Assembly: GCA_963718915.1 (NCBI GenBank)
Contig: CAVRAI010000003.1
Span: 840,001-872,000, forward strand
Direction: 5' to 3'
DNA from: an uncultured Chloroflexia bacterium
Lineage (GTDB): Bacteria; Chloroflexota; Ktedonobacteria; Ktedonobacterales; JADMIN01
DNA: 32,000 nt
Shown here: piece after piece, positions 10,393-30,082 of the stretch
Layout: every line of letters starts with the position of its first letter
Position numbering within the stretch: position 1 is the first letter of the stretch
The notes under the pieces: model-generated
Seen by the model: only the letters and a program-made list of their open reading frames with translations
What the model was told of the DNA's origin: nothing
Database searches by the model: none
Position numbers and translations under genes: made by a program

Positions 10393-10412
10393 GAGACGCT
10401 TGAGAACGCCCC

Positions 10413-12155: not shown

Positions 12156-12217
12156 CGGTTAGGAGTCGACCGAGCGCTGGCGAGATGACTTGTTTGTGAT
12201 GAGAGGGATGGAGCAGG

Positions 12218-13204: not shown

Positions 13205-13358
13205 TGTATCTGGCATATCTGCCGCAGTAGCGCCATCCGATGCGCCATCAGCAACCTATCCGCCGGATGCTGTCCAGGACATCACAGCGCTTCCAGGCTC
13301 TGATTCTACACGTCCTGCCGCAGACACTGCGGAAGCTGAGGATACCGTACACCGAGCA

Positions 13359-13724: not shown

Positions 13725-16700
13725 TTACGCTCCGACATCTGCATGTGGAGAACTTTAAGGGGCTGGATAGCGTAGACCTCTCCTTCCCTGAACAGGGCAG
13801 CATCCTCATCGAAGGCCATAACGAAGCAGGAAAGTCAACCCTTTTCGAGGCAGTCTATGTCGCACTCTATGGTGAGCCTTTAGTCGGCGAGGACAATCGC
13901 CCACGTCTTGAGGAGGTCATCAAGCATGGTCAGCCGCAGGCGCTGGTCGAATTGACCTTCGCCGTCAGCACCGAGCAACTCACGATACGCCGTGTCTTGA
14001 GACGGGAACAACCTCAACAGGCGCGGCTTACTATCCGCCAACCCAATGGTCATGAGGAGACTGTCAATCGTCCCACCGCCGTCAATCGACGCATCCTGCA
14101 AGAGTTGAACAATTTGGACGGCGATAATCTGCGCAACTCGTGCTTCGTCGAGCAGAAGGAACTGGGACGGCTGGAGGACATGAATCCCAGCAGGCGTGAG
14201 CAGGCAATCCAAAGCCTCCTGGGACTTGAGCGATTGACAAAGCTCTCAGACCAGTTCAAGTTCAAGCGCGAGCAGGAACGCGAGCTAGATCATGCACGGC
14301 GTCTACTCGAACTGGCCTACGCGCAACAGGATGTACGGGTGCTGGTGGTGGAAGAGCAGGCGGCTGCTGAACGTCTCGATGCCACGAGGATTGCCGCGCA
14401 ACTCACAGAATGCGCTGCGCTTGAAGAACAGCAGACGGCTCTCCGGGAGCAGTCGCAGGCAAATGTATTCCGTGAGACCGATCTACGCGGGCGGCTGGAG
14501 TATGCTGGCCGCATACGCGGCCAGGTTTCCAGGTGCAATGTGGTGCAGCAGCAACTGGAAAGAGCGACTGCTCAAAGGGAAACTGTAGAGCGGTTGAAGG
14601 GGAAGCTGGCAGAGATGGATGCCATCGAGCGCCAGGCAATACCCGAAACGAGAACACAACTCGACCGAACCTTGACGGCGCTCAAGTTGGTGGTTGACGC
14701 CGAAGAAAAGCGCATGGCAGTGCATGATGCTACTGGCATTGAGCAAGAAGCGCTACGTGCCGTTGCAGAGCTTGAACGGGCTAAAGAGGTCGTGCGTCAA
14801 CGGGCAGAAACGCTGGATATATCACGTGCGCGAGCGAATCAACACCGCAAGGAAGCAGCTTCGTCGCGCGAACAAAACCAGCGACAACTCGCGATACTGA
14901 GCGCTCGACATAATCAGTTGAGCCATATGCTTGAGTTGGTTATGGCATGGGAGCATAAACGCGACGCATTAGAGGCAGTGCGTCAGCAGATTCGTGATGC
15001 AGAGAAGAATGCGCAAAGGCTCCTGGAGCTTCGCGCTACCCTACTGCAGCGAGAAGAGACAGCCCACCAAGCGGTAGGTAGAGCGGAACAAGCGGAACGT
15101 AAGCGTCAACAGGCGGAGTCGCACCGGCGACAATCAGAGGGATATGAAGCGCTGCACGAGTGGATACGCCTGAAGGAGGTTGAGGCCTCGCTCTCCGGCT
15201 TTGCGCAGGATCGCACCACAATGGAAGCGGAGCGCCAACAGGCCACCGCTGCGTATGCGAGCGCCCAGGCGCGAGCGCGCGGGTTATTGTACCAAACAGC
15301 GGCCACTATGCTGCTGGCAATGATTGCTCTCGTAGCCGGAGCTATTCTATCCCCCTGGCTATTGGTCATTGGAGCTATCCTTGGAGTAGTGGCTATCTTC
15401 CGTGGTGGCGGCTATTGGCGTTCTCGCGTTGCGACGACAGCGGGTAAACAGGCAGTCGAGAGCGTGGCGAACAAGCTTCGCGAGCTCACAATGCGCTATC
15501 AGGCGGCGGTGCATGCTGGGGGTGATCCTGCCCAGCTCGGTCAGCGTGAGCGTGCCCTTACCGCAGCAGGATTCGCAGTCCCCTCGTCGCTTGATGCTGC
15601 GCGTAATCTACTGGCCAGGCTGTCTGCGGAAGGGATCATAGACTATCAGCGTGCAAGGGTGTCAGCAGATGAAGCGGTGACGACACTGGCCCGATTGAAG
15701 GCCGAGGCAGAGCGAGCACAAGGCGATGTCGATCAGACCAGGGTGGCGCTGCACAACCTTGAAGAGCAGGGTGATGCGTCTGTAATGCTGCGTGAACTCC
15801 ACATACGTGAGACCCAGGAGAGCAAAGCAGCCGAAGCTGCTGAGGCAACGGCTCGCGAGGCTACGAAAGGGGAATTGTCATGGCCGACGAATCAAGCTCA
15901 GATCGACATGGCGGCTGCGGCATGTCAGGCGGAGCAACAAACCATTCAGCGCACAATGGCTGATGCGGAAGCCCAGACAAGGCGCATAGAGCATGACGAT
16001 GAAGATGCTATCGCGCAAGCACACCAAGTACTTAGAACCGCTGAGGACGCTGTTGCGGTATTGCAGATGCCTGATCCTCAGGCAATGCTTACGGATGCGC
16101 AGGCAAATCTTGTCCATGCCGAAGAACTCGCGCGCGCAGCTGAAACGCAGTCGCAGTTGGCTGTTCGGGGCATGGGATTATCGCCCGAACGGACGGCAGT
16201 CGAGGCGGCGCGTGGGCGAGTAGAGGAGCGTCTGCGGAACCTGGAAAGCCAACTGACAACCCGGCCAGCGGTTGAAACTGCGTTCACTAACGCACAAACG
16301 ACATATGCAGACATGCTGCAGAAAGCGAGCAATGCGCTCCTGGCAATCGTGGAATCAGCCCGTTCACTTGCAATCGCATCGCTTCAAGGCGTCGCGGCGC
16401 TTGAAGATCAGGCCGCGCGTGAGCGTCCGTTGGCCGCCAGGCTAGACGAGGTGTGTGCTGCCCTCGTATCTGCGCTCACCGAGCTTCATGAGGCAGATGC
16501 ACAGACTGAGCTAGAGCGCCTCCTGCATGAGAAGGGGACACTGAACCAGCGCCTACAGTCTATGGAGAGTCAACTTGCCTCTATTGAGGGGGACATCCAG
16601 AGTATCTTGGCGGCGCGTCACCTCCCTACGCCTACCCAATATACTGCTACGGCATTGGCTGCTGTGTGGCCGTTGATCGGAACAGCCTCGGCTCACGAGC

Positions 16701-17440
16701 TTGATCGTATGCAACTGGAACTTGAGCAAGTTCGCAACCGCCACTTCGCAGCGCGTGATCGGGAGCATCGCCTGACCGAAATACTTGGTGATCCAGGGGT
16801 GGAACTCGAGGTCGAGGCGTGTGGCCATCGCGTCCAAGAACTCGATGAGGAGCGAGCCATCTGCCAGCACGCCATCGGCATAATCCAGGAGACTCGTGAT
16901 CGCATTGCTCGGCAGGTTCTGCCGACCACAGAACGCAATATGGAATTGTTGCTTCGTGAACTTACCATGCACCGCTACTGGAGCGTTCGATTGACACCAC
17001 CTGCCAGCGAAGAGAGGCAGCTCAACCAGCTTGATTACCGCATTCGTGTATGGGATCAGACAGCCCAGCGCTATGTTGCCAAGAATCTCTTCTCTGGAGG
17101 TACACGAGATCAATGTTCCCTGGCATTGCGGCTCGCCTTTGCTCTGGCGACTCTCCCACAGGAGCTAGGCATTGCGCCTGGTTTCATTTTTCTGGATGAG
17201 CCATTGAGCGCCTTCGATGCCCAGCGTGCGCAAGCACTTGTGAATCTGCTCACGACAGGAATCATTGCTCAGCAGTTCGCCCAGGTCGTGGTCATCTCGC
17301 ATCAGCATGCGTTTGATCGCAACGCATTTCAGTATCATATTCGTATGGATAGTGGCCAAGTCGTCGAGAGCGATCTCCCAGTGATGCCCAGCCACTCTTT
17401 GCAACGCACGCCTATGAAAGCCTCTAGTGCGCGTGCGTGA
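13721..17440 (+). CDS. Rad50/SbcC-like SMC-type ATPase with central hydrophobic hairpin
   Basis: Walker A GHNEAGKSTLFEAV. Q-loop FVEQKELG. More than 800 aa of heptad-like E/Q/R/A-rich sequence. Signature FSGGTRDQCSLALRLA. Walker B FIFLDEPLSAFD. H-loop VVISHQH. Hydrophobic block TAATMLLAMIALVAGAILSPWLLVIGAILGVVAIF at residues ~526-560. Confidence 0.9.
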   Translation: MITLRHLHVENFKGLDSVDLSFPEQGSILIEGHNEAGKSTLFEAVYVALYGEPLVGEDNRPRLEEVIKHGQPQALVELTFAVSTEQLTIRRVLRREQPQQARLTIRQPNGHEETVNRPTAVNRRILQELNNLDGDNLRNSCFVEQKELGRLEDMNPSRREQAIQSLLGLERLTKLSDQFKFKREQERELDHARRLLELAYAQQDVRVLVVEEQAAAERLDATRIAAQLTECAALEEQQTALREQSQANVFRETDLRGRLEYAGRIRGQVSRCNVVQQQLERATAQRETVERLKGKLAEMDAIERQAIPETRTQLDRTLTALKLVVDAEEKRMAVHDATGIEQEALRAVAELERAKEVVRQRAETLDISRARANQHRKEAASSREQNQRQLAILSARHNQLSHMLELVMAWEHKRDALEAVRQQIRDAEKNAQRLLELRATLLQREETAHQAVGRAEQAERKRQQAESHRRQSEGYEALHEWIRLKEVEASLSGFAQDRTTMEAERQQATAAYASAQARARGLLYQTAATMLLAMIALVAGAILSPWLLVIGAILGVVAIFRGGGYWRSRVATTAGKQAVESVANKLRELTMRYQAAVHAGGDPAQLGQRERALTAAGFAVPSSLDAARNLLARLSAEGIIDYQRARVSADEAVTTLARLKAEAERAQGDVDQTRVALHNLEEQGDASVMLRELHIRETQESKAAEAAEATAREATKGELSWPTNQAQIDMAAAACQAEQQTIQRTMADAEAQTRRIEHDDEDAIAQAHQVLRTAEDAVAVLQMPDPQAMLTDAQANLVHAEELARAAETQSQLAVRGMGLSPERTAVEAARGRVEERLRNLESQLTTRPAVETAFTNAQTTYADMLQKASNALLAIVESARSLAIASLQGVAALEDQAARERPLAARLDEVCAALVSALTELHEADAQTELERLLHEKGTLNQRLQSMESQLASIEGDIQSILAARHLPTPTQYTATALAAVWPLIGTASAHELDRMQLELEQVRNRHFAARDREHRLTEILGDPGVELEVEACGHRVQELDEERAICQHAIGIIQETRDRIARQVLPTTERNMELLLRELTMHRYWSVRLTPPASEERQLNQLDYRIRVWDQTAQRYVAKNLFSGGTRDQCSLALRLAFALATLPQELGIAPGFIFLDEPLSAFDAQRAQALVNLLTTGIIAQQFAQVVVISHQHAFDRNAFQYHIRMDSGQVVESDLPVMPSHSLQRTPMKASSARA

Positions 17441-20039: not shown

Positions 20040-22616
20040 GTGATTCGAATAGTGAGCAAACAACGATCACGGCTTGGCATGACAGCACGACGGCTTCTTG
20101 CTGTTATGTCACTCGGCATTCTTGTAGTCACTCTATCTCCGCTCGCTTCTCTCTCTGTCCTTGCGCAGCCAGCCAGTTCCATCGCGCCGACAGCGTCCGC
20201 GCCTGCTGGCCATGTCACGATCCTCGTCCTCGATATGTCCGGCTCGATGGGCAGCAACGATCCGAATGGATTGCGCTGCTCGGCGGCTAACGCCTATATC
20301 GATTTGAGCGGGCCGGGCGATTTCGTCGGCGTCGTCGGTCTGGATAACACCGGCCCGACGGGCGGCGCGCATAACTTCCCGCTGGCGCAGGTATGGGCCG
20401 AGCCGAGTGAAATGGCGACGGTTGCCGCGCGCGCGCAACTGCATAACACCATCGCTACGAAGTCCCATAACTGCAAGCCCGACTCCGCGACCCCCACCTA
20501 CGACGCCTTGCAACGAGCGCTGACGATGCTCACGGCATCCACCGCGCAGACGCATCTGCCCGGCTCCGTCATCCTGCTGACCGATGGCGTGCCCGCGCCA
20601 CAACAGAACGAGCAGATCAGCGCGATCCAGACCGACCTCGTGCCGCAGTTCAAGCAGCGCGACTTTCCGGTTGATACGGTGGCCCTTGGCGCGGACGGCA
20701 CGCTGCGGTCGTTCCTGAGCGACCTCGCCAACGCGACGGGCGGCGCGTACTATGACGATGGACACGGCGTGGTCAGTGGCGTCTCGCCCTTGAACATCGC
20801 GCCCTTCTTTGTCAGCATCTTCGCCCAGCGCAATGGCCGCACGGTGACGCATGACATCCCGCCGACAGCGCTTTCCGGCGGCACGGTCTCGCGGAACTTC
20901 TCTATCGGCGCCTTTGTCTCGCATCTCGATGTCGTCGCCGTCAAAGACTCACCTGCTACGCGCGTGACGCTGACCGCGCCCAACGGCCAAGTCTTGCCGC
21001 CAGCGGTCGCCGGAACATTTATCTCCAGCGACCCTCATTACGTCATCTTCAGTGTGGATCATCCGCAGAGTGGGGCATGGCAACTGAATGTGACTGGCTC
21101 CGGGCGCTTCCTGATGGATAGCCTCAAGCTCTCGACCCTCGGCCTGAGCATCCTCGCGCCCGCCTCGGACACGCCAGAGCCGCTGGGCCAGCCGCTGACG
21201 GTGAGCGCGACGCTCAACGACAATGGCACGCCGATCACTGGCAGCCGCTATAGCATGAACGGAACGATTGCCTACAGCGGCGGCACGGGTAGCTATACGC
21301 AGGAGTTCGTGCTGGACGACCACGCCAGCCCGGGTACCTATGCCGCGCAGATTACGATTCCGCCCAGCGCGCCCGCTGGAACCTATAACGTCACGATCAA
21401 CGCGCGCGAGGTGAGCGATACCATCGCCAGCGCCAATCGTCTGGTCCGCATCGAACTCTTCCCATCGCCGCTGCTCGTCGCTCCCTCCACCGGCAAGCTC
21501 ACCACCGATACCGTCGCCACGAGCGAGACCCTGTGGGATCCCGCACTGCGCGCGATCTATAGCGTGCCGTTTGGGGTGCTGACCTGGCTCAGTGGCTGGC
21601 CGTTGCAGGGGCATCCGGTGGTGGACGGCGCGCGGCTCGACGGCGCGGTTCAGCTCGACGGCAAACCGTATGCTAACGCCAGCGTCAGCGGCTTGGCCAC
21701 ACGCGATGGCTCGAAGACGGCGATCCCGCTGCATATCGCGCCTGGCGAGAACGGGCGCTTCACGGCGGCCTTTACGCCCAGCGGTGACGGCCAGTACGCG
21801 CTGACGTTCAGGACGCTGGGCAGTTTCAAGGATTCGCATGGCGACCTCGGCACGACCACCCGCACGGTGGCGCTCAAGACGCAGCCCGCCTCGCTCGCGC
21901 AGGAGGCCATCGCCTGGGCCATTACGTTGCTATATCTCGCCATCCTCGTGCTGATTGTGCTGCTGATCCGCTATGCCATCTCGCAGAAGCCGTTCGGACG
22001 ATTGGTCTCCAACGACGGCGGAGGCGGCGAGGAGTTCTCCCGCGCACGTCGCGGGCTATTTGGGCTGCTGCATCCGGGCACGGTGCTCTCGCAGCAGATG
22101 GGGCTTGACCCCGGCCTGATCTTCAGCTTCCGGCGCGGCAACCGCATCACCGTCGAGGGCAACGGCGGCGGTCGGCGGGCCTACCGGCTTGGCGGCGAGC
22201 CGCTCCCCACCAGCCCCGTCCCTGCCGCGGAGTCGCTGCTGACGACCAACGAGGGGATGTCCTATACGGTGAGCGCGTCGAGTAGCGATGAGTTCCTGGA
22301 CGAAGAAGAGGGCACGCGGCGCGGCGGACTGCTGCGCCGCAAATCGGCCAGCGACGACTACTTTGACGATGACGACGCTCGTGGGCGGCGCGGTCTGTTC
22401 GGGCGGCGGTCGCGTGGCGACGACTACGATGACGAGGGGAATCGCGGCAGCCGACGTAAATCGCGGCGCGCGCGGGACGACTACGACGATATGGACGACG
22501 ACGGCCCCTCGCGCTCGCGCGGTGGTTCGCGTGGCCGTTCGCATGGCGATGATTTTGACGACTATTCTTCAGGCGGGCGATCCAGGAAATCGCGGCGGCG
22601 CGATGATGACTATTGA
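20040..22616 (+). CDS. exported von Willebrand factor A (vWA) domain protein with a single C-terminal TM helix and a charged disordered cytoplasmic tail
   Basis: GTG 20040 is preceded by AAGAGGG; ATG 20079 is an alternative start. Signal-peptide-like MTARRLLAVMSLGILVVTLSPLASLSVLAQP. MIDAS motif VLDMSGSMGS, TPTYDAL, ILLTDG. Long beta-rich ectodomain. TM helix AIAWAITLLYLAILVLIVLLIRYAI. R/D-rich tail. Confidence 0.85.
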   Translation: MIRIVSKQRSRLGMTARRLLAVMSLGILVVTLSPLASLSVLAQPASSIAPTASAPAGHVTILVLDMSGSMGSNDPNGLRCSAANAYIDLSGPGDFVGVVGLDNTGPTGGAHNFPLAQVWAEPSEMATVAARAQLHNTIATKSHNCKPDSATPTYDALQRALTMLTASTAQTHLPGSVILLTDGVPAPQQNEQISAIQTDLVPQFKQRDFPVDTVALGADGTLRSFLSDLANATGGAYYDDGHGVVSGVSPLNIAPFFVSIFAQRNGRTVTHDIPPTALSGGTVSRNFSIGAFVSHLDVVAVKDSPATRVTLTAPNGQVLPPAVAGTFISSDPHYVIFSVDHPQSGAWQLNVTGSGRFLMDSLKLSTLGLSILAPASDTPEPLGQPLTVSATLNDNGTPITGSRYSMNGTIAYSGGTGSYTQEFVLDDHASPGTYAAQITIPPSAPAGTYNVTINAREVSDTIASANRLVRIELFPSPLLVAPSTGKLTTDTVATSETLWDPALRAIYSVPFGVLTWLSGWPLQGHPVVDGARLDGAVQLDGKPYANASVSGLATRDGSKTAIPLHIAPGENGRFTAAFTPSGDGQYALTFRTLGSFKDSHGDLGTTTRTVALKTQPASLAQEAIAWAITLLYLAILVLIVLLIRYAISQKPFGRLVSNDGGGGEEFSRARRGLFGLLHPGTVLSQQMGLDPGLIFSFRRGNRITVEGNGGGRRAYRLGGEPLPTSPVPAAESLLTTNEGMSYTVSASSSDEFLDEEEGTRRGGLLRRKSASDDYFDDDDARGRRGLFGRRSRGDDYDDEGNRGSRRKSRRARDDYDDMDDDGPSRSRGGSRGRSHGDDFDDYSSGGRSRKSRRRDDDY

Positions 22617-22688: not shown

Positions 22689-25442
22689 ATGACGATGAAC
22701 AGAGGTGATGGCATGGGCGACACTGATATGACACTTAACGCGGCCAATGGAGCGGAAGACAGACCACGATCAGCGGCAGAGTCGCAGATAGAAGTGCCGT
22801 CGCTCAACATTTTTCTTGGCAGTACTCCAGCGTACTCGGCCCTGGAGATGATGCGCCAGCTTGTCCATCTCTCGCCTTCTGACCATCGGCGCGTCGCGCT
22901 GGTCTTCCTCGATATCGACTCGCCCCCGGCGGAGGTTCAGCAGTTCCGCCAGGAGCATCTGGGCGTGCTGCGCGAGTTTGATCTGCGCATCTCGGTGGCG
23001 CACGGCGTTGTCTACGCGGACCAGTTGCCGCAGCCCATCGCGACCCATACCTACATCCCTACCAAAATCCCTGAGTCGTTCGATAACGGCGCGGGTGGCA
23101 TCCGCAACAACGGACACGTCGCCGCCGCAACCGACCGCGCCAAAATCGATCAGCTGCTCGAAGAGGCGCTCTCCGCGATTGGGGCGCTGCCTCCGGAGCG
23201 TGGGGCGCGCCCGGTGAGCGAGGTGCAGGTGAATATCGTCGCCTTCCTGGGCGGCGGCACCGGCAGCGGCATCCTGGGCGATGTCGCCGTAATGGCCCGA
23301 CATCGCATCTTGCAACGGAATCTCAAACACCGCCTGAATATCTTCTGCCTGCTGCCAGAGCACGTCCGCGAGGCGACCACCAATGACGTGAGCTGGCGCA
23401 AGAGTAACGCCACCGCGACCCTGATGGAGCTGATCGCGCTCAGCCTGGTGCGCGAGAATCGAGGTGGCGCGCGCTACACCAAATATATGGCGGAGACGCC
23501 CTATGAGGTGCGTGGCGAGACCATCGCCAACGAGGTCTATCTCTTCGGCAAAACTTCGATGGTCTCAGCGGAAGACGCGGCGCGCATTATCGGCCTTGAT
23601 CTCTATATGCGGGTGACCAACGCATCGGGTGTCGGCTTCCTCGAACGCTCTAAAGCCGTTGACCGCCGCACGCTCGGCAACTTCGACCGCACCGGCCTGC
23701 CGACGATGTTCGGCACCACCTGCCCGCTGGAGGTCGCCTTTCCCGCCATCGAGACAGCAACCGCCTTTGCCCGGCTGACCGCCTCGAAGGTGCTGCCGCT
23801 GCTGGCGCGCGACATGAGCGAGGCGCGCGGCCAACTGAACGCGAGCGATTTGGACGAAGTGAAAGAGTGGGACAGAGCGTTACAGCCAGAGGATCCGCCA
23901 CCCTTCAGCGATAAGAGCTTCCAGACGGCGGGGCGCGACCGGCTCGATATGTTGGAGGCGCGGCTGAGCAAGCAGGTGCAGGAGGCAACCGACGAGATTG
24001 CCGAACTGGCGGAGCAGAAGGAAGAGGAAGAGAAGAAGCGTATCTATAGCGCCGCGCTGGAGCCGCTCGGCGTGCAGATCGCCCGACTGGAGACGCGCAA
24101 GCGTATCTATAGCGCCGCGCTGGCTCGCGTGCAGGATCAGAATGTGCCCAGCAAGGGACGCCCCGACCGCCAGCTCCAGCGCAAACTGCTCCGGCCGCTG
24201 CCACTGCCCGGCGCAAAAGACCGCAACGTCGCCGCCGTCACCGACGACTTCAACCGCGTTCAGCGGCGGAATGTGCGCAACGAGTATCTGACGCGCAAGA
24301 AGCGCCTGCTGACCAAACTGCTCGAATATGTCAACGCCGAGTTGCAGCACGTCAAGCGCTTCCAGGGGGATGTCGAGGTCGATCAGTCGGCGCGCGACCT
24401 GGAGAAGCTAGCCACCTCGTCGTCGGCCTGGCGCGGCGAGTTGGACAATACCCACATTCACCGGCGCCACGTCTTCGATCTACCCGGCATGCCCGGCATG
24501 AATACGGGCGGGCTATCGTCGCCGCCGGTCGAGCGCCTGTACGAGCACATGACCTCGCGCGACCTGCCCTCCTATGCGCAGCGCTTTACTGAGTGGATAC
24601 AGACGCGCCACGGGGCCGATGCGGCGCTGGCGGCGGGCACGGGCAACGAGCTACGCGACCGGCTGGTGCAATATCTACGTGACGAGGTCTATCTCAAGCG
24701 GCTGCTGGAGATGAATCTCTTCGATTTGCTGGAGGTCTGCTGCGTCGAGTCGGGTGAGCGCGCCGATCACAAGATCGAGAATATCTTGCTGGCGCATCTG
24801 CAACACATCAGCGGCCTGGCCCGCGAGCTGGTGGCCTTCGAGGCGCAACTCTGGCACGAGGGCAGCGGTATGCTCAGCACCAGCCTCTACATGGGGATGA
24901 GTTGGAAGAGCGGCTTTCAGCGGCGGATTCTGGATCGCGCGCGCGGTCGGCTCGGCGCCATCGCCAAAGAAGGCGCAAGCCCAATGCTCGCCAGCGCGAT
25001 TGACCCGCACCGGCTGCAACTGGCCTATGGGCAGCACGCCATCAGCCTGGGCACCATTCCCGATTTCTATCAGGAAGCCAACAGCAGCATGGGCGAGTTC
25101 CTGCGCCACCAGTCATACTGGTTTGTCGATGGCAGTAAGCAATCGTATGGTCGGAGCCGAGCGCCCGTCTTCAGTTCCGGCGAGATGGAAAAGCTGGTGA
25201 TGGATCCTAATGCGCTTCTCGATGGTAAAAGCACGCTGCCAGCGCGTATCATCCGACAGGTACAGCGTGGCGCGGGCGATGCGCCCACGTGGGCGACGAG
25301 CCAGCCGGGCAGCGCTTACGCCCCGACGGCGCCCACCGCGGCATCCAACGGGCAGTATCCGCCACAGCAGCCAACGTATCCGCGTGGCGGCGCTAGCGGT
25401 ACGAGCGGATATGGGAGCGGCGGTGGCGGGTCGAGCTTCTAG
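22689..25442 (+). CDS. large tubulin/FtsZ-superfamily-like GTPase domain protein with coiled-coil region and Gly/Ser/Tyr-rich tail
   Basis: T4 signature GGGTGSG (23250-23270) matches the PROSITE tubulin pattern. T3-like FDNGAGGIRNNGH (about 23079-23120). E/K/R-rich helical middle. C-terminal tail QYPPQQPTYPRGGASGTSGYGSGGGGSSF. Alternative start ATG 22713, preceded by GAGGTGA. Confidence 0.8.
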   Translation: MTMNRGDGMGDTDMTLNAANGAEDRPRSAAESQIEVPSLNIFLGSTPAYSALEMMRQLVHLSPSDHRRVALVFLDIDSPPAEVQQFRQEHLGVLREFDLRISVAHGVVYADQLPQPIATHTYIPTKIPESFDNGAGGIRNNGHVAAATDRAKIDQLLEEALSAIGALPPERGARPVSEVQVNIVAFLGGGTGSGILGDVAVMARHRILQRNLKHRLNIFCLLPEHVREATTNDVSWRKSNATATLMELIALSLVRENRGGARYTKYMAETPYEVRGETIANEVYLFGKTSMVSAEDAARIIGLDLYMRVTNASGVGFLERSKAVDRRTLGNFDRTGLPTMFGTTCPLEVAFPAIETATAFARLTASKVLPLLARDMSEARGQLNASDLDEVKEWDRALQPEDPPPFSDKSFQTAGRDRLDMLEARLSKQVQEATDEIAELAEQKEEEEKKRIYSAALEPLGVQIARLETRKRIYSAALARVQDQNVPSKGRPDRQLQRKLLRPLPLPGAKDRNVAAVTDDFNRVQRRNVRNEYLTRKKRLLTKLLEYVNAELQHVKRFQGDVEVDQSARDLEKLATSSSAWRGELDNTHIHRRHVFDLPGMPGMNTGGLSSPPVERLYEHMTSRDLPSYAQRFTEWIQTRHGADAALAAGTGNELRDRLVQYLRDEVYLKRLLEMNLFDLLEVCCVESGERADHKIENILLAHLQHISGLARELVAFEAQLWHEGSGMLSTSLYMGMSWKSGFQRRILDRARGRLGAIAKEGASPMLASAIDPHRLQLAYGQHAISLGTIPDFYQEANSSMGEFLRHQSYWFVDGSKQSYGRSRAPVFSSGEMEKLVMDPNALLDGKSTLPARIIRQVQRGAGDAPTWATSQPGSAYAPTAPTAASNGQYPPQQPTYPRGGASGTSGYGSGGGGSSF
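24036..24123. repeat. in-frame 63-bp-period internal duplication in the tubulin-like gene
   Basis: The 25-mer AAGCGTATCTATAGCGCCGCGCTGG occurs at 24036-24060 and 24099-24123. It encodes KRIYSAAL twice. Confidence 0.9.
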
Positions 25443-26096
25443 CGCGGGCGTGATGTAGTTTCACGTATTACACAGAACAGCGCGCATCGTGGCGGGCGCG
25501 GCAGGCCGTAGCATAAATGCTACGGCGAATGGGCAGAGCGGCGCGTGGGGGCCGGGAAATTCGCCGGGGCCTTTGGGCTTCCGGCTTGCTCGCCTAGCAC
25601 GCGGTCTAGCACGCGGTTCGGAGTTAATTCGTACAGTTCATCATGCGCCAGGGCCGCCAGCCAATCCCGCCATTGGCGCCGAAACCGAAAATACCCATAG
25701 TACGTACATACGAGGGGCGTGATTCCGTCTCCCTCATGGAACGAAGTATTTTAGTAGATGTAGTAGGCGGCGTTTTTACTCTGTAACAGGGGCAAGGTTC
25801 GTGGTTGGGCGGGTTCGCGGCATGAATGCCGCGGCTAATCCCGTTCGATGAGCATTCCGCTACGTGGCAAGAGGGTGAATTGCCGCAGGATTAGCTGTAG
25901 TCTTCAGGCTACGGCGCGGTACGAGCAGACGAACGCTGCGATTCATCCCAGGGGTCATACCGGATCGCGGTCTGGAGAGCCTGCGCAGGCAGGCTTTGCG
26001 GCGTAGCCCTTAGGCGCGGCTTTAGCCGCCAGCCGCCCTACGGCGGGGATTCATACCGAATAGCAGGCAAAGACAGGCATAGGCAAGGAGCAGAGC
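25443..26096. other. 654-bp non-coding spacer rich in short perfect hairpins, palindromes and a 12-bp x2 tandem repeat
   Basis: GCCGTAGCA-TAAA-TGCTACGGC (25505-25526). CTAGCACGCGGT x2 (25594-25617). CGCGGCAT/ATGCCGCG (25816-25833). GCTAATCC...GGATTAGC pairing across about 45 nt. GCCTGCGCAGGC palindrome. GCGGC-TTTA-GCCGC. No convincing ORF. Confidence 0.6.
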
Positions 26097-26378
26097 GTGG
26101 CAACCTCGACGCCGATTCGCTTCCGACCAACGATCGTCCTCTGTGTGGGCGACCGTGGCCGCGAGGTGGGCGCGCAACTCTCCATGCTCTTGCCAGGGCT
26201 GGATGGCGCGCGTCAGGCGGGTATCGCGCTGCTCACGGTCGATGACGACGCGACGATGACGGCGCGTTGCTCGGCGCCTGGTACGATCCGGGCCTCAGCG
26301 CCGTCGCCAGCCTACCCGGCCCCCTACCCGACGATACGCCCATCAGCATTGATCGCCGCCCGTTACCAACCCTCGTGA
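26097..26378 (+). CDS. probable true 5' end of the downstream tubulin-like paralogue, in a different frame (only the first ~55 codons look genuine)
   Basis: GTG 26097 has AAGGAG 6 nt upstream. PTIVLCVGDRGREVGAQLSMLL...AGIALLTVDDD aligns with LNIFLGSTPAYSALEMMRQLVHL...RVALVFLDIDS of the upstream paralogue. Confidence 0.4.
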   Translation: MATSTPIRFRPTIVLCVGDRGREVGAQLSMLLPGLDGARQAGIALLTVDDDATMTARCSAPGTIRASAPSPAYPAPYPTIRPSALIAARYQPS

Positions 26379-28762
26379 CGGAAGGACTGCGCGGCCAGCA
26401 CTACGAGCACTACGTGCGCTCGACGCCAGAAACACAGGTGCGCCGTGGCGTGCTGGACGACGCCGTGGTGGGACACATCCGCGACAATGGCTATAGCGTG
26501 CCGCGAGCGATGGCGGTTGTCTGGATCGCCGCCGCCGCCGATTCGCCGCTGCTGCTCGATGTCGCGCGGGATGTGCGTACCTCCATGCGCAGCGAGAGCG
26601 TCGAGTCGTGGGTATTGCTGGCGCTGACCAATACCTACCCACACGATCCCGCCGAGCATCTGGCGCAGGAAGAGCGCGTCGCCGATCAGCCGTGGCGCGA
26701 GCTACTGCTGGGAGATGAGAAGCCTGCCCAACCAAGTCACCAGCCCGGCCAGTTCAGCCCTTCCAAAGAGCCGCCGCTGGCAACCTACTCCTATATCTTC
26801 GAGACGCACGACGAGAAGGGCCATTTCTGGGAAGGCCCGGATGAGGTCGCCTATGGCGCGGCGGAGGCGATTTTCGTGCTGACCGCCACTGGTATCACCA
26901 CCACGCGCGAGTACGAGGAGACCCTGCGGCGGGCTACACCCAACATGGTGCGCCAGCCGTTCGAGCGGATGAGCAGCGTGGGCACAAGCCGCCTGACCTT
27001 CCCGCGCGCGCAGGCTGAGCTGTACTGCGCCAGCCGCCTCGGCGCGACCATCCTCGACGAATGGGCGCCGGAAAAAGCCGCCGACCTCTCCGACCAGGAC
27101 CAGCGCCGCGAGGCCGCCGAGGCCCGGCGCTACCTGAACGGCATCAACGGCGAGATGCGCGATAGCGACACTGTGGTGGCAGCGCTCCGCCACAATGAGG
27201 GACGCCGTTCGCGCCGCCACTCGCGCGAGCACCAGCTGCCGCCGGATGACGCCGCCAAAACATTGGTCTACCGCCACTTCAGCCCGGCGGTGGTGCGCCG
27301 CTATATCACCGCCCGCACCGACGAGCCGACCGCGCTCGAAAACCAGCTTCCGCGCGCCGAGGAGGGCTTCGCCGCCTGGCAGGAGGTCGTCAAGCCAGCG
27401 TGGGAACGTTACGGCCACGAGACCGAGCGCGCGCTCTCGACCAGAACCAACGAGCAGGTGCTGGAGGGCGCCATCGGCGTCGAACGCGCCTATGCCTACA
27501 TGGATGGTCTGAATAAGGCGCTGCTGGCCGAACAGGAGAATCAGACGCTCGGACGCGGCGCACGCAACGCGCGCTATCTGCGCTTTCTGGAGACGCTGGA
27601 AGATGAGAGCAAAGGCCCATGGGAGGCCGATATCATCCGCCAGCCCGACGAGCCGGAGCTGACCCGTGAGGCGGCGCTGATCGAGCGACTGGCGGCGCGC
27701 TATCGCTGGCTGAAGCGCCACCGGCCCGCCGTCGCAACCTTCGTCGGCGCGGGACTGCTGATCGTCCCGATGCTGACCTTGCTGCTAGATGCGATTCTGG
27801 CCGCTCCAACTCGCGGCGGTCTGTTCTCGCTGCCGTTGCTCGCCGTCTACTCGGTTGCGCTGGTGGCGCTGGCCTCATGGGGCTATGCCGCCTGGCGGCG
27901 ACGGCAACGCGAGGATGCTCTTGCCGATCTGCGCAAGGTCTATCGCACGATGTATCGTTACCGCTGCGACGAATACGAGGATGAGTTACGGGCGGAGGCG
28001 CTCCAGGGTCTGCGCCAGCGGGCGGAGCGCATTCTGGATCGGCTGGCGAACTGGGAGCGCTTCATCGGCGAGGTTGCGCGCACCCTGCGCGACGAGGCCG
28101 ATAGCATCGAGCTGCGCCTTTTCAACGGCGCGGTCGGGCGGCGCGATATTCTGGTGGCGAACCGTCGTCGGCTGCGGCTGGACGGCTATTCGCTACGACG
28201 CTTCGAGGAAGACGTGAGCAAGCTGCGCCAGATTCGGCCCATCGAGGGTTCGCCGTGGCACAGCAACCAGCATGAACTACTGCTTCAGCTACGCGCCCGT
28301 CTGCATATGACCGCCAGCCTGGTAGATTCGCCGGTGCTGGCGCTGCTCCCGCCGATTCGCGAGTATTGCCACGAGATTGTGCGCCCGTATCTCACGGGCG
28401 ATCTGGTCTACCTGAGCGGTGCGCTTGATGCGCTGCCCGCCGATTCGTCGAACAGCCTCTTCGATACACTGGTGGACCGCTCGGTGATCCTCTATCAGCC
28501 GGAGGATCAGCCACGCGCGGCCACGGTCTTCATGGCGGCGCGTGAGGAGGATAGGCTCGCTATTCTGCGCACGAGCAAACAGCGCGGGCTGGTGACGCTT
28601 GGCCTGGAGGATCGCGAATGGCTGGCGACGCTGCGGCTGCTCCCCGGTGGCACGACGCCGACATTCTGGCGCCATCGCACCGTTCACACCCATCCCTCGC
28701 TGCCAACGCCCGACTGGGCTTCCGACTCCATCACGATGCAGCGTGGAAGAACACAAGGATAG
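26267..28762 (+). CDS. tubulin-like paralogue with a degenerate nucleotide-binding motif and a central two-helix TM hairpin
   Basis: Collinear similarity to 22689-25442: VVWIAAAADSPLLLDVARDV vs VNIVAFLGGGTGSGILGDVAVM; SSVGTSRLTFPRAQAELYCASRLGATILDEW vs MFGTTCPLEVAFPAIETATAFARLTASKVLPLL. TM helices VATFVGAGLLIVPMLTLLLDAIL and LFSLPLLAVYSVALVALASWGYAAW. TTG 26267 has no SD, so the true start is probably 26097 via a frame change. Confidence 0.75.
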   Translation: MLGAWYDPGLSAVASLPGPLPDDTPISIDRRPLPTLVTEGLRGQHYEHYVRSTPETQVRRGVLDDAVVGHIRDNGYSVPRAMAVVWIAAAADSPLLLDVARDVRTSMRSESVESWVLLALTNTYPHDPAEHLAQEERVADQPWRELLLGDEKPAQPSHQPGQFSPSKEPPLATYSYIFETHDEKGHFWEGPDEVAYGAAEAIFVLTATGITTTREYEETLRRATPNMVRQPFERMSSVGTSRLTFPRAQAELYCASRLGATILDEWAPEKAADLSDQDQRREAAEARRYLNGINGEMRDSDTVVAALRHNEGRRSRRHSREHQLPPDDAAKTLVYRHFSPAVVRRYITARTDEPTALENQLPRAEEGFAAWQEVVKPAWERYGHETERALSTRTNEQVLEGAIGVERAYAYMDGLNKALLAEQENQTLGRGARNARYLRFLETLEDESKGPWEADIIRQPDEPELTREAALIERLAARYRWLKRHRPAVATFVGAGLLIVPMLTLLLDAILAAPTRGGLFSLPLLAVYSVALVALASWGYAAWRRRQREDALADLRKVYRTMYRYRCDEYEDELRAEALQGLRQRAERILDRLANWERFIGEVARTLRDEADSIELRLFNGAVGRRDILVANRRRLRLDGYSLRRFEEDVSKLRQIRPIEGSPWHSNQHELLLQLRARLHMTASLVDSPVLALLPPIREYCHEIVRPYLTGDLVYLSGALDALPADSSNSLFDTLVDRSVILYQPEDQPRAATVFMAAREEDRLAILRTSKQRGLVTLGLEDREWLATLRLLPGGTTPTFWRHRTVHTHPSLPTPDWASDSITMQRGRTQG

Positions 28763-28773
28763 GTGGCGCGCCG

Positions 28774-29370
28774 ATGATGACGGACCCCTACGGCCAGACG
28801 AATCCGAGACCGGCAAATGGCGCCATGACGCCCGCGCAGATTCCGCCGGTGGGCCACATCTCGCCACGGATGCTGCTGGCAGTGGCCGCGATCTACAATC
28901 CGGCGATTCTCATCGGCTACTTCCTCTATATCTACGGGCCAAGCAATAGCTGCGTGCTGGGCGGTCTCTGCGGTTTCGGCGATTTTCCCGGCATCATCCA
29001 GCTTTTCCTGCTGATCGTCGGCGCTGGCATCTTCACAGCAGTCGTTTTCGTGCCGCTCTGGTGGCTGCTGGATGAGGCGCGTCCGGCCCGCGACATCGTC
29101 TCCCGCACCGCCCGCGATATGATGCGCTTCGTCACGATTCGCCCGCTGATGGTCGGCTACGGTGTTATTCTGGCGCTGCTGCTCATCATTGGCCTGCTCG
29201 TGCACCGCGTCCCGCCGTCACTCTTCCTGCTTGGCCTCTCGTCGACGATCATCTGCTTCTGGTGCGCCGCCAGCCCGGAGTTCACTCCCCCGCCACCTGC
29301 CTCACCGCCACAGCAGCGTCCTCGTCCCGCCAGCAGTGTCCTCCCGCGCGATCCACCGCCGCCGCTATAG
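28774..29370 (+). CDS. four-TM membrane protein with Pro-rich C-terminal tail
   Basis: ATG 28774 lies 12 nt after the upstream stop (28760-28762). Four hydrophobic helices. Tail PPPPASPPQQRPRPASSVLPRDPPPPL. The upstream part of the 250-aa ORF overlaps the previous gene. Confidence 0.7.
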   Translation: MMTDPYGQTNPRPANGAMTPAQIPPVGHISPRMLLAVAAIYNPAILIGYFLYIYGPSNSCVLGGLCGFGDFPGIIQLFLLIVGAGIFTAVVFVPLWWLLDEARPARDIVSRTARDMMRFVTIRPLMVGYGVILALLLIIGLLVHRVPPSLFLLGLSSTIICFWCAASPEFTPPPPASPPQQRPRPASSVLPRDPPPPL

Positions 29371-29482: not shown

Positions 29483-29520
29483 ATAGGCGAGGGTGTGTGA
29501 TACCCTCGCCTATGTGTTGT
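29483..29520. terminator. bidirectional terminator hairpin between convergent genes
   Basis: Perfect 12-bp stem ATAGGCGAGGGT (29483-29494) / ACCCTCGCCTAT (29502-29513), 7-nt loop, then GTGTTGTTG. Confidence 0.6.
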
Positions 29521-29557: not shown

Positions 29558-29848
29558 CTACCAGTCGTTGCGACGACCGTATCCCCCACCGGAGCGCTCG
29601 GGGCGCGGCTGCGCCTCGTTCACACGAATGCTCCTGTTGTCGAGCGTCGTCCCATTGAGGGACGCGATCGCGTTGCGTGCGGCGGTATCGTCAGACATCT
29701 GAACAAAGCCGAAGCCCTTGCTGCGACCAGTATCACGGTCAATCACGACCGAAGCCTCGACGACCTCACCATACGCGCTAAAAATCTGAACCAGCTGCTC
29801 GTTGTCAGCTGAATAGGGCAGGTTGCCCACGTAAATCCGGGTGGCCAT
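29558..29848 (-). CDS. RRM-type RNA-binding protein (glycine/arginine tail)
   Basis: RNP-2 IYVGNLPY and RNP-1 KGFGFVQM. ATG at 29848 is preceded by GAAGGAGGGAG. Confidence 0.9.
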   Translation of the reverse strand: MATRIYVGNLPYSADNEQLVQIFSAYGEVVEASVVIDRDTGRSKGFGFVQMSDDTAARNAIASLNGTTLDNRSIRVNEAQPRPERSGGGYGRRNDW

Positions 29849-30082
29849 GTGGCTCCCTCCTTCAAGCAGAATCATGCCGACGCACTGATGGCGTCAGCGT
29901 CCAATACTCCGTGACAAGTCAATCTGTACAGCACTCGCAGACTCATGGAGATTCTTGCTGAGGAGAGAAACTCGATCAGGCAGAGGTTACCAAGAAGAGT
30001 TACATCGTGCATTCGCGATCAACTACGAAGGTAGTATAACACATCTGGCGGATCATTGCCGACGTTCATGTTGCGCGAGTAT

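What the first reader, a model, noticed from the sequence alone, without database searches (positions are those of the whole stretch)
22689..25442. 917-aa protein with canonical tubulin T4 signature and FtsZ-like T3 loop but an atypical T1 region and long helical extension
**Seen in sequence.**
- VNIVAFLGGGTGSGILGD (GGGTGSG at 23250-23270) matches [SAG]-G-G-T-G-[SA]-G.
- About 55 residues upstream, FDNGAGGIRNNGHVAA resembles the FtsZ GxGAGxxPxxG T3 loop.
- The expected N-terminal glycine-rich T1 loop is replaced by LGSTPAYSAL.
- After the about 400-aa GTPase-like region come about 400 aa of E/K/R/L-rich helical sequence and a Q/P/Y/G/S-rich tail.

**Inference.** This is a divergent tubulin-superfamily GTPase fused to a coiled-coil scaffold. 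The disordered tail may be a partner-binding peptide, as in FtsZ.
Basis: partly seen in the sequence, partly recalled or inferred. Interest (0 to 1): 0.7.

Follow-up and report, generated by a model that had tools for sequence, protein, structure and literature searches.

The report
FtsZl1 tubulin-like GTPase, vWA operon
The 917-aa protein is a real but already catalogued kind of bacterial tubulin relative (FtsZ-like 1 / Pfam Tubulin_2). It sits in a conserved four-gene membrane module of Ktedonobacteria, next to a hidden, GTP-loop-less copy of itself, and nobody has yet tested what this family does.

Summary
ORF 22689-25442 encodes 917 aa, with GGGTGSG at 23250-23270, GAGGIRNNGH upstream, and LGST where T1 is expected.

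The protein passes Pfam Tubulin_2 (PF13809) at 71.7 bits against a cut-off of 27. An AlphaFold model (pLDDT 85) matches only tubulin, CetZ and OdinTubulin among its top 50 PDB hits. It therefore belongs to the FtsZ-like 1 (FtsZl1) family, defined computationally by Makarova and Koonin (2010): an N-terminal tubulin-like domain, a coiled coil and a helical C-domain, in an operon with a vWA protein. NCBI already names its orthologues "tubulin-like domain-containing protein".

What this analysis adds:
- **T1 variant.** The odd T1, LG[ST][ST], is a conserved signature of a narrow Ktedonobacteria clade, not decay.
- **C-terminal half.** It is a roughly 160-aa helical stalk followed by a conserved roughly 280-aa α/β domain.
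- **Tail.** The disordered tail is not conserved, so there is no FtsZ-like docking peptide.
- **Cassette.** The gene lies in a cassette of vWA membrane protein, GTPase, 890-aa protein and small membrane protein. The cassette is conserved in about 35-39 of about 40 informative loci.
- **Third gene.** It is a cryptic paralogue with the T3 and T4 loops lost and a transmembrane hairpin (hhalign E = 2.7e-7).

The function is inferred: GTP-dependent assembly at the membrane, coupled to an extracellular vWA sensor.

The parts
20079..22616 (+). g1: a vWA membrane protein. The ORF opens at GTG 19929; the likely start is M51 at 20079. It has a signal peptide or anchor, an extracytoplasmic vWA domain with the MIDAS motif DMSGS...T...D, β-rich domains, one TM helix at about aa 660-685, and a roughly 210-aa cytoplasmic tail rich in R and D that ends in RRRDDDY.
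   Evidence: Pfam VWA_2 scores 28.3 bits and VWA_3 22.4 bits. Hydrophobic segments and the D.S.S and DD[YF] motifs come. The gene lies upstream of g2 in 35 of 37 informative loci.
22689..25442 (+). g2: the finding itself, a 917-aa FtsZl1 / Tubulin_2 family protein with no TM segment (cytoplasmic).
22794..23813 (+). g2 tubulin/FtsZ-fold nucleotide-binding domain, about aa 36-375, running S1 to S6 plus the following helices and strand 341-350.
   Evidence: Secondary structure of the AF2 model. Foldseek to CetZ2 4b45_A gives E = 1.9e-5 over 345 columns, and tubulins align over about 365 columns. The Pfam match covers aa 123-323.
22815..22826 (+). T1-position variant LGST, aa 43-46.
   Evidence: L43, G44, S45 and T46 are at least 90% conserved in alignment A1. 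The clade pattern is LG[ST][ST], against G[LI]GG[TS]G in distant Tubulin_2 proteins.
23088..23117 (+). T3-type loop GAGGIRNNGH, aa 134-143.
   Evidence: G134 and G137 to H143 are invariant. Distant family members have GAGQxRxxGR.
23250..23270 (+). T4 signature GGGTGSG, aa 188-194.
   Evidence: A T4-like motif is present in 134 of 140 g2-type sequences.
23934..24419 (+). g2 helical stalk or coiled-coil region, aa 416-577.
   Evidence: AF2 helices H416-457, H460-483, H509-561 and H564-577, with pLDDT mostly around or above 90.
24441..25268 (+). g2 conserved C-terminal α/β domain, about aa 585-860, including the H589xHxRH594xFD597 and D772-P-H-R...Y780GQH783 motifs.
   Evidence: It has no Pfam hit.
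25278..25439 (+). g2 disordered low-complexity tail, aa 864-917.
   Evidence: pLDDT is below 50. Homologues do not conserve it in sequence or length.
26097..28762 (+). g3: about 890 aa, a probable pseudo-GTPase paralogue of g2. It has an N-terminal tubulin-like domain lacking T3 and T4, a helical stalk with a TM hairpin, and a C-terminal α/β domain. In this window it is interrupted by a 1-nt deletion near 26246, so the first roughly 50 aa read in one frame (26097-26246) and the rest in another (26249-28762).
   Evidence: Searches show the frameshift. Homologues are 880-900 aa. hhalign against the g2 N-domain gives Prob 93.3%, E = 2.7e-7 over 288 columns, while reversed controls give E = 0.36-0.58. 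Sixteen of 46 members have sub-threshold Tubulin_2 hits. The AF2 model has pLDDT 82.8, and Foldseek finds tubulins at probabilities of mostly 0.9 or above (up to 0.99). None of 85 sequences has a T4-like motif. The gene lies downstream of g2 in 39 of 42 loci.
27725..27886 (+). g3 transmembrane hairpin: two hydrophobic helices.
   Evidence: Kyte-Doolittle segments 487-516 and 517-540 of the 26267-frame ORF. The P0121 model shows helices H548-570 and H580 onward.
28774..29370 (+). g4: a small polytopic membrane protein with 3-4 hydrophobic helices. The ORF opens at 28618; the likely start is M53 at 28774, just after the g3 stop.
   Evidence: A homologous gene follows g3 in 27 of 33 informative loci. 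It has no Pfam hit.
29483..29513 (.). Terminator-like hairpin with a 14-bp stem, closing the cassette and shared with the convergent RRM gene.
   Evidence: This is a consensus scan only.

Best explanation
**What is shown**
- g2 is a member of the FtsZ-like 1 (FtsZl1, Pfam Tubulin_2) branch of the tubulin/FtsZ superfamily.
- It has a tubulin-fold nucleotide-binding domain, a helical stalk, a conserved α/β C-domain and a variable disordered tail.
- The nucleotide loops are intact at T3 (GAGGIRNNGH), T4 (GGGTGSG), T5 (LPE) and H5 (SNA), with an NE pair after S6. T1 is a clade-specific LG[ST][ST].
- It is the soluble subunit of a four-gene cassette conserved across Ktedonobacteria (Chloroflexota). 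The other three products are:
  - a type-I membrane protein with an extracellular MIDAS-containing vWA domain and a charged cytoplasmic tail ending in an acidic-aromatic peptide;
  - a full-length paralogue of g2 that has lost T3 and T4 and gained a transmembrane hairpin;
  - a small polytopic membrane protein.

**What is inferred**
- g2 binds GTP and pairs with the membrane-anchored pseudo-GTPase g3 through tubulin-type or stalk contacts.
- The result is a GTP-regulated dimer or oligomer on the cytoplasmic face of the membrane.
- The vWA protein couples this assembly to an extracellular ligand or to the cell envelope through its cytoplasmic tail.
- The output is local membrane or envelope remodelling, or scaffold formation. 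It is not cell division.

Whether the proteins form filaments, and what the physiological trigger is, remains open.
For: **Family and fold**
- Pfam Tubulin_2 scores 71.7 bits against a gathering cut-off of 27.
- The AF2 model has pLDDT 85 and pTM 0.78.
- The Foldseek top 50 are all tubulin-superfamily chains, and 355 hits have E <= 1e-3.
- The architecture and the vWA neighbour match the published family definition, and Tubulin_2 is equated with FtsZ-like in PMC9871819.

**Conservation of loops**
-.

**Cassette**
- g1 is present in 35 of 37 loci, g3 in 39 of 42 and g4 in 27 of 33. Order and strand are the same even where g2 is only 24-26% identical.
- No other recurrent neighbour appears except an optional fifth gene.

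**g3 paralogy**
- hhalign gives E = 2.7e-7, colinear over 288 columns, with reversed-profile controls at E = 0.36-0.58.
- Pfam hits are sub-threshold but colinear.
- Foldseek finds tubulins at probabilities of mostly 0.9 or above (up to 0.99).
- The β-α-β-β C-terminal pattern is the same in both models.
- No g3 sequence has a T4-like motif, 0 of 85.

**Topology**
-.

**Conserved C-terminal peptide**
- The vWA tail ends in RRRDDD[YW] in many orthologues.
Against: - There are no biochemical data for any FtsZl1 member: literature searches found none, and no related sequence is in the PDB.
- T1 is non-canonical and no NxDxx[DE] T7 motif exists. GTP hydrolysis by a tubulin-like inter-subunit mechanism is therefore unproven, and filament formation may not occur. 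Makarova and Koonin raised the same doubt.
- The g2-g3 interaction is inferred only from paralogy and gene adjacency. No complex model could be run.
- First-pass hhalign with shallow alignments was not significant.
- The Foldseek E-values for g3 are weak (0.014-0.08), and its single best-E hit is a dynamin-like protein with a meaningless rmsd.
- g3 is frameshifted in this window. If the frameshift is real, the module is defective here.
Confidence: 0.6

Rival explanations
1. The cassette is an anti-invader (biological-conflict) system of the kind proposed by Kaur, Burroughs, Iyer and Aravind (2020). In that model an extracellular vWA or membrane sensor triggers NTP-dependent assembly of tubulin-domain proteins, which act as the effector or threshold device, typically in multicellular prokaryotes.
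For: - Kaur et al. describe tubulin plus coiled-coil genes (two per operon in Firmicutes) together with membrane-bound extracellular vWA proteins. They report enrichment in multicellular lineages, including chloroflexi.
- Several genomes carry two or more divergent cassettes.
- Flanking genes differ between relatives.
- One distant relative (L005) sits between SNF2/SWIM, TIR and integrase genes.
Against: - The defining DO-GTPase, GAP1 and FNIII components are absent from the window and from the ±7 kb flanks of about 50 loci.
- No cassette protein hits PADLOC.
- No recognisable toxic effector domain is present.
- The closest relative keeps the same upstream neighbour, a HAD hydrolase, which suggests chromosomal stability.
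Confidence: 0.22
2. g2 works as a non-polymerising GTPase switch or dynamin-like mechano-enzyme. In this reading it acts as a GTP-dependent dimer with g3, using stalk and membrane-hairpin mechanics rather than tubulin-type protofilaments.
For: - There is no T7-type motif and no Pfam hit to the FtsZ or tubulin C-terminal domain (FtsZ_C, Tubulin_C).
- Both paralogues have long helical stalks, and g3 has a membrane hairpin.
- Foldseek gives weak hits of g3 to BDLP and to α-pore-forming toxins.
- Makarova and Koonin noted that the elements needed for filaments are missing.
Against: - The BDLP and toxin hits have TM-scores of 0.1-0.2 and rmsd above 28 Å, so they carry no weight.
- The GTPase fold is tubulin-type, not dynamin-type.
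- Residues after S6 are strongly conserved and acidic: D304, E319, D325, D333 (97%) and E348. They could supply a T7 equivalent.
Confidence: 0.15
3. g2 is the cell-division FtsZ, or a close functional substitute, of this organism.
For: It has the tubulin/FtsZ fold and the GGGTGSG motif.
Against: - There is no hit to Pfam Tubulin (PF00091) or FtsZ_C, and none to any NCBIfam FtsZ model.
- The 917-aa architecture includes a stalk.
- The operon contains vWA and membrane proteins, not dcw genes.
- There is no conserved C-terminal peptide.
- The family normally coexists with a canonical FtsZ.
Confidence: 0.02
4. GGGTGSG is a chance glycine-rich loop in an unrelated Rossmann-like protein.
For: None was found.
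Against: - The Pfam score is above the gathering threshold.
- Fold matches are exclusively to the tubulin family.
- The expected number of chance motifs is 8e-5.
- T3, T5 and H5 are conserved alongside T4.
Confidence: 0.01

Closest known systems
FtsZ-like 1 (FtsZl1) family of Makarova and Koonin 2010, equal to Pfam Tubulin_2 (PF13809)
   Same: - N-terminal FtsZ/tubulin-like nucleotide-binding domain with GGGTG(S/T)G.
- Family-specific inserts between T1 and T4.
- A coiled-coil or helical region followed by a mostly helical C-terminal domain.
- No FtsZ_C or Tubulin_C domain, and no confident T6-H7-T7.
- An operon with a MIDAS-bearing vWA protein and membrane proteins.
   Different: - The clade-specific T1 is LG[ST][ST] rather than G[LI]GG[TS]G, and T3 is GAGGIRNNGH rather than GAGQxRxxGR.
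- The cassette has no associated P-loop GTPase, OmpA-family protein or protein kinase.
- The partner gene downstream is a cryptic paralogue without GTP loops and with a TM hairpin. This is not mentioned in the 2010 paper.
Tubulin-vWA theme of the DO-GTPase/GAP1-N2 systems (Kaur et al., eLife 2020)
   Same: - Tubulin-domain proteins fused to coiled-coil or α-helical C-regions, with two such genes per operon in Firmicutes.
- A membrane-bound vWA protein with the vWA domain outside the cell.
- Occurrence in multicellular or filamentous prokaryotes.
   Different: - No DO-GTPase, GAP1 or FNIII-repeat protein is found in or near the cassette.
- There is only one vWA protein.
- One of the two tubulin-domain proteins is predicted inactive and membrane-inserted.
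α/β-tubulin and BtubA/BtubB heterodimers
   Same: They share the fold and the principle of two adjacent paralogues with unequal nucleotide chemistry.
   Different: - Sequence identity is only about 10-14%.
- There is no tubulin C-terminal domain and no T7 motif.
- One partner here has lost the nucleotide loops altogether and is a membrane protein.
- Heterodimerisation has not been shown.
CetZ, FtsZ and TubZ/PhuZ
   Same: - They share the tubulin/FtsZ GTPase fold. CetZ2 (4b45_A) is the best Foldseek hit, with a target-normalised TM-score of 0.47.
- They share the T4 signature.
   Different: - There is no Pfam Tubulin or FtsZ_C match.
- The protein is about 500 aa longer.
- It has no conserved C-terminal docking peptide.
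- It has no T7 NxDxx[DE] motif.
- The genomic context is different.

Membership tests
FtsZl1 / Pfam Tubulin_2 (PF13809) | Score above the Pfam gathering threshold for the Tubulin_2 model | tested here: met
   The score is 71.7 bits against a cut-off of 27, E = 8.8e-20. It covers aa 123-323, which is profile positions 107-310 of 356. The first 106 profile positions, which include the T1 region, did not align.
FtsZl1 / Pfam Tubulin_2 (PF13809) | GGGTG(S/T)G signature loop (T4) | tested here: met
   GGGTGSG is at aa 188-194 and is invariant in 70 homologues.
FtsZl1 / Pfam Tubulin_2 (PF13809) | Architecture: N-terminal FtsZ-like domain, extended coiled coil, mostly α-helical C-terminal domain, and no FtsZ_C or Tubulin_C | tested here: met
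   AF2 secondary structure shows long helices at 416-577 and a helix-rich α/β domain at 585-860. No other Pfam domain is found.
FtsZl1 / Pfam Tubulin_2 (PF13809) | Predicted operon with a vWA-domain protein that has an intact MIDAS motif | tested here: met
   The upstream gene hits VWA_2 and VWA_3 and carries DMSGS at aa 102-106. It is present in 35 of 37 loci.
FtsZl1 / Pfam Tubulin_2 (PF13809) | Canonical glycine-rich T1 loop, G[LI]GG[TS]G in typical members | tested here: not met
   The window protein and its clade have LG[ST][ST], whereas distant members P0250, P0251, P0253, P0255 and P0257 have GLGGTG-type loops. This is a clade variant, not a criterion that excludes family membership.
FtsZl1 / Pfam Tubulin_2 (PF13809) | Tubulin/FtsZ three-dimensional fold of the N-domain | tested here: met
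FtsZl1 / Pfam Tubulin_2 (PF13809) | GTP binding, GTP hydrolysis and self-assembly | not testable with these tools
   No experimental data were found for any member.
Canonical FtsZ (cell division) | Pfam Tubulin (PF00091) plus FtsZ_C, and a match to an NCBIfam FtsZ model | tested here: not met
   There are no such hits at E <= 0.1.
Canonical FtsZ (cell division) | T7 synergy loop, GxxNxDxx[DE] | tested here: not met
   Neither N.D..[DE] nor G..N.D occurs anywhere in the protein.
Canonical FtsZ (cell division) | Conserved C-terminal peptide after a disordered linker | tested here: not met
   The tails of 45 homologues share no terminal motif.
DO-GTPase/GAP1-N2 tubulin-vWA conflict system (Kaur et al. 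2020) | Linked DO-GTPase(s), a GAP1 protein and an FNIII-repeat protein | tested here: not met
   None appears among the Pfam-scanned ORFs of the window. No further recurrent gene family was found within ±7 kb in about 50 loci, apart from g1-g4 and one small unknown gene. GAP1 has no Pfam model in my scans, so its absence rests on the lack of any extra conserved neighbour.
DO-GTPase/GAP1-N2 tubulin-vWA conflict system (Kaur et al. 2020) | Tubulin-domain protein(s) with a helical C-region, plus a membrane-bound extracellular vWA protein | tested here: met
Known anti-phage defence systems (PADLOC-DB v2) | A match of any cassette protein to a defence-system model | tested here: not met
   g1, g2 and g3 have no PADLOC family at E <= 0.01.

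The most novel reading that the evidence does not exclude
The Ktedonobacteria cassette may encode a previously unrecognised kind of tubulin-superfamily machine. In this reading a soluble, GTP-binding FtsZl1 subunit and a membrane-inserted paralogue that has lost T3 and T4 form an obligate α/β-tubulin-like pair. The pair assembles on the membrane and is controlled from outside the cell by a vWA-MIDAS receptor, through that receptor's conserved acidic-aromatic C-terminal peptide. That would make it a transmembrane-coupled bacterial tubulin system, possibly linked to the mycelial, multicellular lifestyle of these bacteria.
Probability: 0.3. Interest if true: 0.7.

Novelty: new member of a known kind. 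Interest (0 to 1): 0.42.

Why it matters
FtsZl1/Tubulin_2 is the most divergent branch of the tubulin/FtsZ superfamily. It was predicted in 2010, and in everything I could search it still has no solved structure, no biochemistry and no phenotype.

This locus does not change what the family is, but it offers a clean, compact example for experiments:
- The cassette has only four genes and no additional GTPases or kinases.
- It occurs in culturable Ktedonobacter species.
- The GTPase is paired with a loop-less, membrane-anchored paralogue.
- The vWA receptor has a conserved C-terminal peptide.

If the pairing is real, it would be a further case of a tubulin-family heterodimer with one subunit lacking the nucleotide loops. 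It would also give a concrete, testable route to how these proteins connect to membranes.

Tried and rejected
- **PDB by sequence.** Searches with the single protein and with the 70-sequence profile found nothing related to tubulin. Only fold comparison shows the relationship.
- **First hhalign runs.** Comparing g2 with g3 using shallow alignments, both full length and trimmed, was not significant (E = 0.05-0.9). Only alignments diversified with sequences from about 50 loci gave E = 2.7e-7. The C-terminal halves stay non-significant at E = 0.05, although they are colinear.
- **More g3 proteins against Pfam.** Ten further, more divergent g3 proteins never passed the Tubulin_2 threshold; the best score was 14 bits.
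- **Other libraries.** NCBIfam and PADLOC gave nothing for g2 or g3, and only sub-threshold NCBIfam hits for g1. Pfam gave nothing for the g2 C-domain, the g1 tail, g4 or the optional fifth gene.
- **Non-coding features.** Rfam and tRNA scans found nothing in or next to the cassette.
- **Literature.** Searches for any experimental study of FtsZl1, PF13809 or a tubulin-vWA system found only computational papers.
- **Rejected readings.**
  - Canonical FtsZ.
  - A chance motif.
  - The g2 tail as a conserved docking peptide.


Full report
**1. The observation**

ORF 22689..25442 (+) encodes 917 aa.
- GGGTGSG is aa 188-194, nt 23250-23270.
- FDNGAGGIRNNGHVAA is aa 131-146.
- LGSTPAYSAL is aa 43-52.

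The tubulin signature [SAG]GGTG[SA]G occurs once in all six frames of the window, and about 8e-5 matches are expected by chance in a protein of this composition.

**2. What the protein is**

*Profile and fold evidence*
- Pfam Tubulin_2 (PF13809) matches at E = 8.8e-20 and 71.7 bits, against a gathering cut-off of 27. The match covers aa 123-323.
- There is no match to Pfam Tubulin or FtsZ_C, and none to any NCBIfam model.
- PDB sequences are not reached by the single protein or by a 70-sequence profile.
- An AlphaFold2 model built on 70 homologues is confident: pLDDT 85 and pTM 0.78, with only aa 1-20 and 864-917 disordered.
- Foldseek against the PDB returns tubulin-superfamily chains in all top 50 places: CetZ2 4b45_A at E = 1.9e-5 over 345 columns, then α/β-tubulins and OdinTubulin. 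In total 355 hits have E <= 1e-3.

*Family assignment*

The architecture and context are those of the FtsZ-like 1 (FtsZl1) family, defined computationally by Makarova and Koonin in 2010. [quoted passage not shown] Santana-Molina et al. 2023 equate this 'FtsZ-like' group with Pfam Tubulin_2 (PMC9871819).

Homologues are 36-89% identical and about 900 aa long. They come from Ktedonobacterales and Ktedonobacteraceae (Chloroflexota), including Ktedonobacter racemifer. NCBI already names them 'tubulin-like domain-containing protein'. The protein is thus a member of a known but experimentally untouched family. I found no biochemical, structural or genetic study of it.

**3.

*(a) T1*

A full HMMER scan of 1.84 billion representative proteins with the N-domain finds only 75 clusters at E <= 1e-3, so this is a narrow clade. 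Within that clade T1 is LG[ST][ST], with G44, S45 and T46 at least 90% conserved. The most distant hits carry the usual G[LI]GG[TS]G, and GAGQxRxxGR in place of GAGGIRNNGH. The atypical T1 is a conserved variant, not degeneration. It also explains why the first 106 positions of the Pfam profile did not align.

*(b) Other nucleotide-contact elements*

These are conserved:
- LPE follows S5 (P223, E224).
- H5 reads W-R-K-S-N-A (R237, N240).
- N281 and E282 lie at the start of S6.

Read against tubulin from memory, these resemble the T5/H5 'EPYNAT' and 'DNEA' motifs. That resemblance is a lead, not a test.

*(c) T7*

No T7 motif, NxDxx[DE] or GxxNxD, exists. Conserved acidic residues after S6 are candidates for an equivalent: D304, E319, D325, D333 (97% of 140 sequences) and E348.

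*(d) The C-terminal half*

It is not 400 aa of scaffold. Helices span about aa 416-577. They are followed by a well-conserved α/β domain at about aa 585-860, with His-rich motifs H589xHxRHxFD and D772PHR...YGQH783. This domain has no Pfam hit.

*(e) The tail*

The G/P/S/Q/Y tail varies in length and sequence and has no shared terminal motif. The analogy to the FtsZ C-terminal peptide is not supported.

**4. Surroundings**

Using HMMs built here, I scanned 49 loci from GTDB species genomes plus five from metagenome contigs. The cassette g1, g2, g3, g4 keeps the same order and strand even where g2 is only 24-26% identical:

| Gene | Present in informative loci |
|---|---|
| g1 upstream of g2 | 35 of 37 |
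| g3 downstream of g2 | 39 of 42 |
| g4 after g3 | 27 of 33 |

All-against-all clustering of flanking ORFs found no other recurrent neighbour, except an optional roughly 220-aa gene after g4 in 15 loci. That gene is absent from this window.

- **g1 (about 20079-22616).** It has a signal peptide, a vWA domain with DMSGS, one TM helix, and a 210-aa cytoplasmic tail with about 19% R/K and 19% D/E. The tail carries eight [DE][DE][YFW] motifs. Its extreme C-terminus, RRRDDDY here, recurs as RRRDDD[YW], DDDDW or EDDIF in many orthologues.
- **g4 (about 28774-29370).** It has 3-4 hydrophobic helices.
- **End of the cassette.** A strong hairpin at 29483-29513 follows g4.

**5. The third gene is a hidden paralogue**

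g3 spans 26097-28762, and its homologues are 880-900 aa. It has no Pfam domain above threshold. The evidence for paralogy with g2 is as follows:
- Sixteen of 46 members give sub-threshold, colinear Tubulin_2 hits, the best at 22.4 bits. Residues around 200-300 match profile positions 250-355.
- With diversified alignments, hhalign aligns the g2 and g3 N-domains over 288 columns at Prob 93.3% and E = 2.7e-7. Reversed-profile controls give E = 0.36-0.58.
- In that alignment 'VAFLGGGTGSGIL' faces 'IAAA----ADSPLL', and the T3 loop has no counterpart.
- A T4-like motif is present in 134 of 140 g2-type sequences and in none of 85 g3 sequences.
- An AF2 model of a 92%-identical orthologue (pLDDT 82.8) hits tubulins by Foldseek at probabilities of mostly 0.9 or above (up to 0.99), E = 0.014-0.08, over about 335 columns.
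- That model shows the same order of stalk helices and a C-terminal β-α-β-β unit as g2. It also has a transmembrane hairpin.

I conclude that g3 is probably a full-length paralogue of g2 that has lost nucleotide binding and gained membrane insertion. The 2010 paper does not mention this. Kaur et al. 2020 note two tubulin-domain genes per operon in Firmicutes systems, but not an inactive membrane form.

In this window g3 carries a 1-nt deletion near 26246 relative to its 81-96%-identical orthologue. A 93% relative from a long-read MAG has a frameshift in g2 instead, so an assembly error is the likelier cause.

**6. How it most likely works**

*Shown*
- The fold and family of g2.
- Conservation of its nucleotide loops.
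- Conservation of the cassette.
- The membrane topology of the four products.
- The paralogy of g3.

*Inferred*
- g2 binds GTP.
- g2 associates with membrane-anchored g3, as paralogous tubulin-family pairs do.
- The complex assembles on the inner face of the membrane.
- The vWA protein links the complex to an extracellular ligand or to the envelope. Its conserved C-terminal acidic-aromatic peptide is the obvious docking element.

This follows Makarova and Koonin's 'membrane remodelling' proposal and adds a specific anchor and partner.

*Main rival*

Kaur et al. read tubulin-vWA operons as NTP-dependent conflict systems of multicellular prokaryotes.
- Against: the defining DO-GTPase, GAP1 and FNIII genes are absent, and no PADLOC model matches.

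*A second rival*

The system may be a non-filamentous, dynamin-like dimer. That fits the missing T7 and C-domain, but it rests on structural hits that carry no weight.

**7. Verdict**

It is, however, a new member of an already described and database-annotated family, so the headline novelty is modest.

The added value lies in four points:
- the clade-specific T1;
- the clean four-gene cassette;
- the cryptic loop-less membrane paralogue;
- the conserved tail peptide on the vWA protein.

Together these make a long-standing uncharacterised branch of the tubulin superfamily more directly testable.

Noticed in passing
window 9121-17440 (+): This looks like an archaeal-type DNA-end-resection operon in a Chloroflexota genome. 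It comprises NurA (9121-10371), HerA (10437-12155), an Mre11-like metallophosphoesterase (12218-13204), a small ORF (13359-13724) and a 1239-aa Rad50/SbcC-like ATPase (13721-17440). PADLOC models for HerA, LmuB and mad also hit these proteins.
   Followed up: partly
window ~26246 (g3, 26097-28762): A single-base deletion relative to the orthologue in L003 puts the first roughly 50 codons of g3 in a different frame from the rest. It may be an assembly error or a real pseudogene. L019, a 93% relative from a long-read MAG, has a comparable break in g2.
   Followed up: partly
window 25443-26096: The spacer between g2 and g3 is unusually long at 654 nt, against 15-42 nt in L001 and L002. It contains a perfect 10-bp hairpin (25505-25526), a tandem 12-mer CTAGCACGCGGT repeated twice (25594-25617) and an imperfect 22-nt inverted repeat (25820-25909). 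There is no Rfam match.
   Followed up: partly
window 21990-22616 (C-terminal tail of the vWA protein): The cytoplasmic tail has about 19% R/K and 19% D/E and carries eight [DE][DE][YFW] motifs. The protein ends in RRRDDDY, and many orthologues end in RRRDDD[YW], YDDDDW or EDDIF. This is a conserved terminal acidic-aromatic peptide, reminiscent of tubulin and FtsZ tail logic but located on the partner protein.
   Followed up: partly
L015, L017, L018, L020, L024-L027, L030-L032, L039, L040, L042, L046 (just after g4): An optional fifth gene of about 210-250 aa follows g4 in 15 loci. In L039 it has a long PNNPNPWGPP-type repeat extension. It has no Pfam hit and is absent from this window.
   Followed up: partly
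L005 1-18520: A distant relative (P0231) has a Tubulin_2 gene, a g3-like gene and a 1026-aa membrane protein with a possible third Tubulin_2-like domain. It has no vWA gene. It is flanked by SNF2-helicase/SWIM, TIR-domain and integrase genes, a defence-island-like setting.
   Followed up: no
L001 16911-18032: A Roadblock/LC7 (MglB-like) gene and a small Ras/Arf-like GTPase gene lie about 0.9-2 kb downstream of the cassette in a 72% relative. There is no counterpart in this window.
   Followed up: no
window 29483-29513 and 29558-29875 (-): A 14-bp-stem bidirectional terminator-like hairpin lies between g4 and a convergent small RRM-type RNA-binding protein gene, identified from its sequence MATRIYVGNLPY...KGFGFV.
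   Followed up: no
window 362-436, 7020-7096, 594-2213 (-): The window also contains tRNA-Thr(CGT) and tRNA-Glu(CTC) genes, and a 539-aa Ser/Thr protein kinase about 20 kb upstream of the cassette. FtsZl1 operons elsewhere often include kinases, but this one is not linked to the cassette.
   Followed up: no
L023/L046, L034/L051 (contigs labelled 'Proteobacteria bacterium' MAGs): Cassettes typical of Ktedonobacteria occur on contigs of MAGs labelled Proteobacteria (Centralia_MAG_377 and 675), and one on a 'Stellaceae' MAG (L038). This is probably mis-binning rather than transfer.
   Followed up: no
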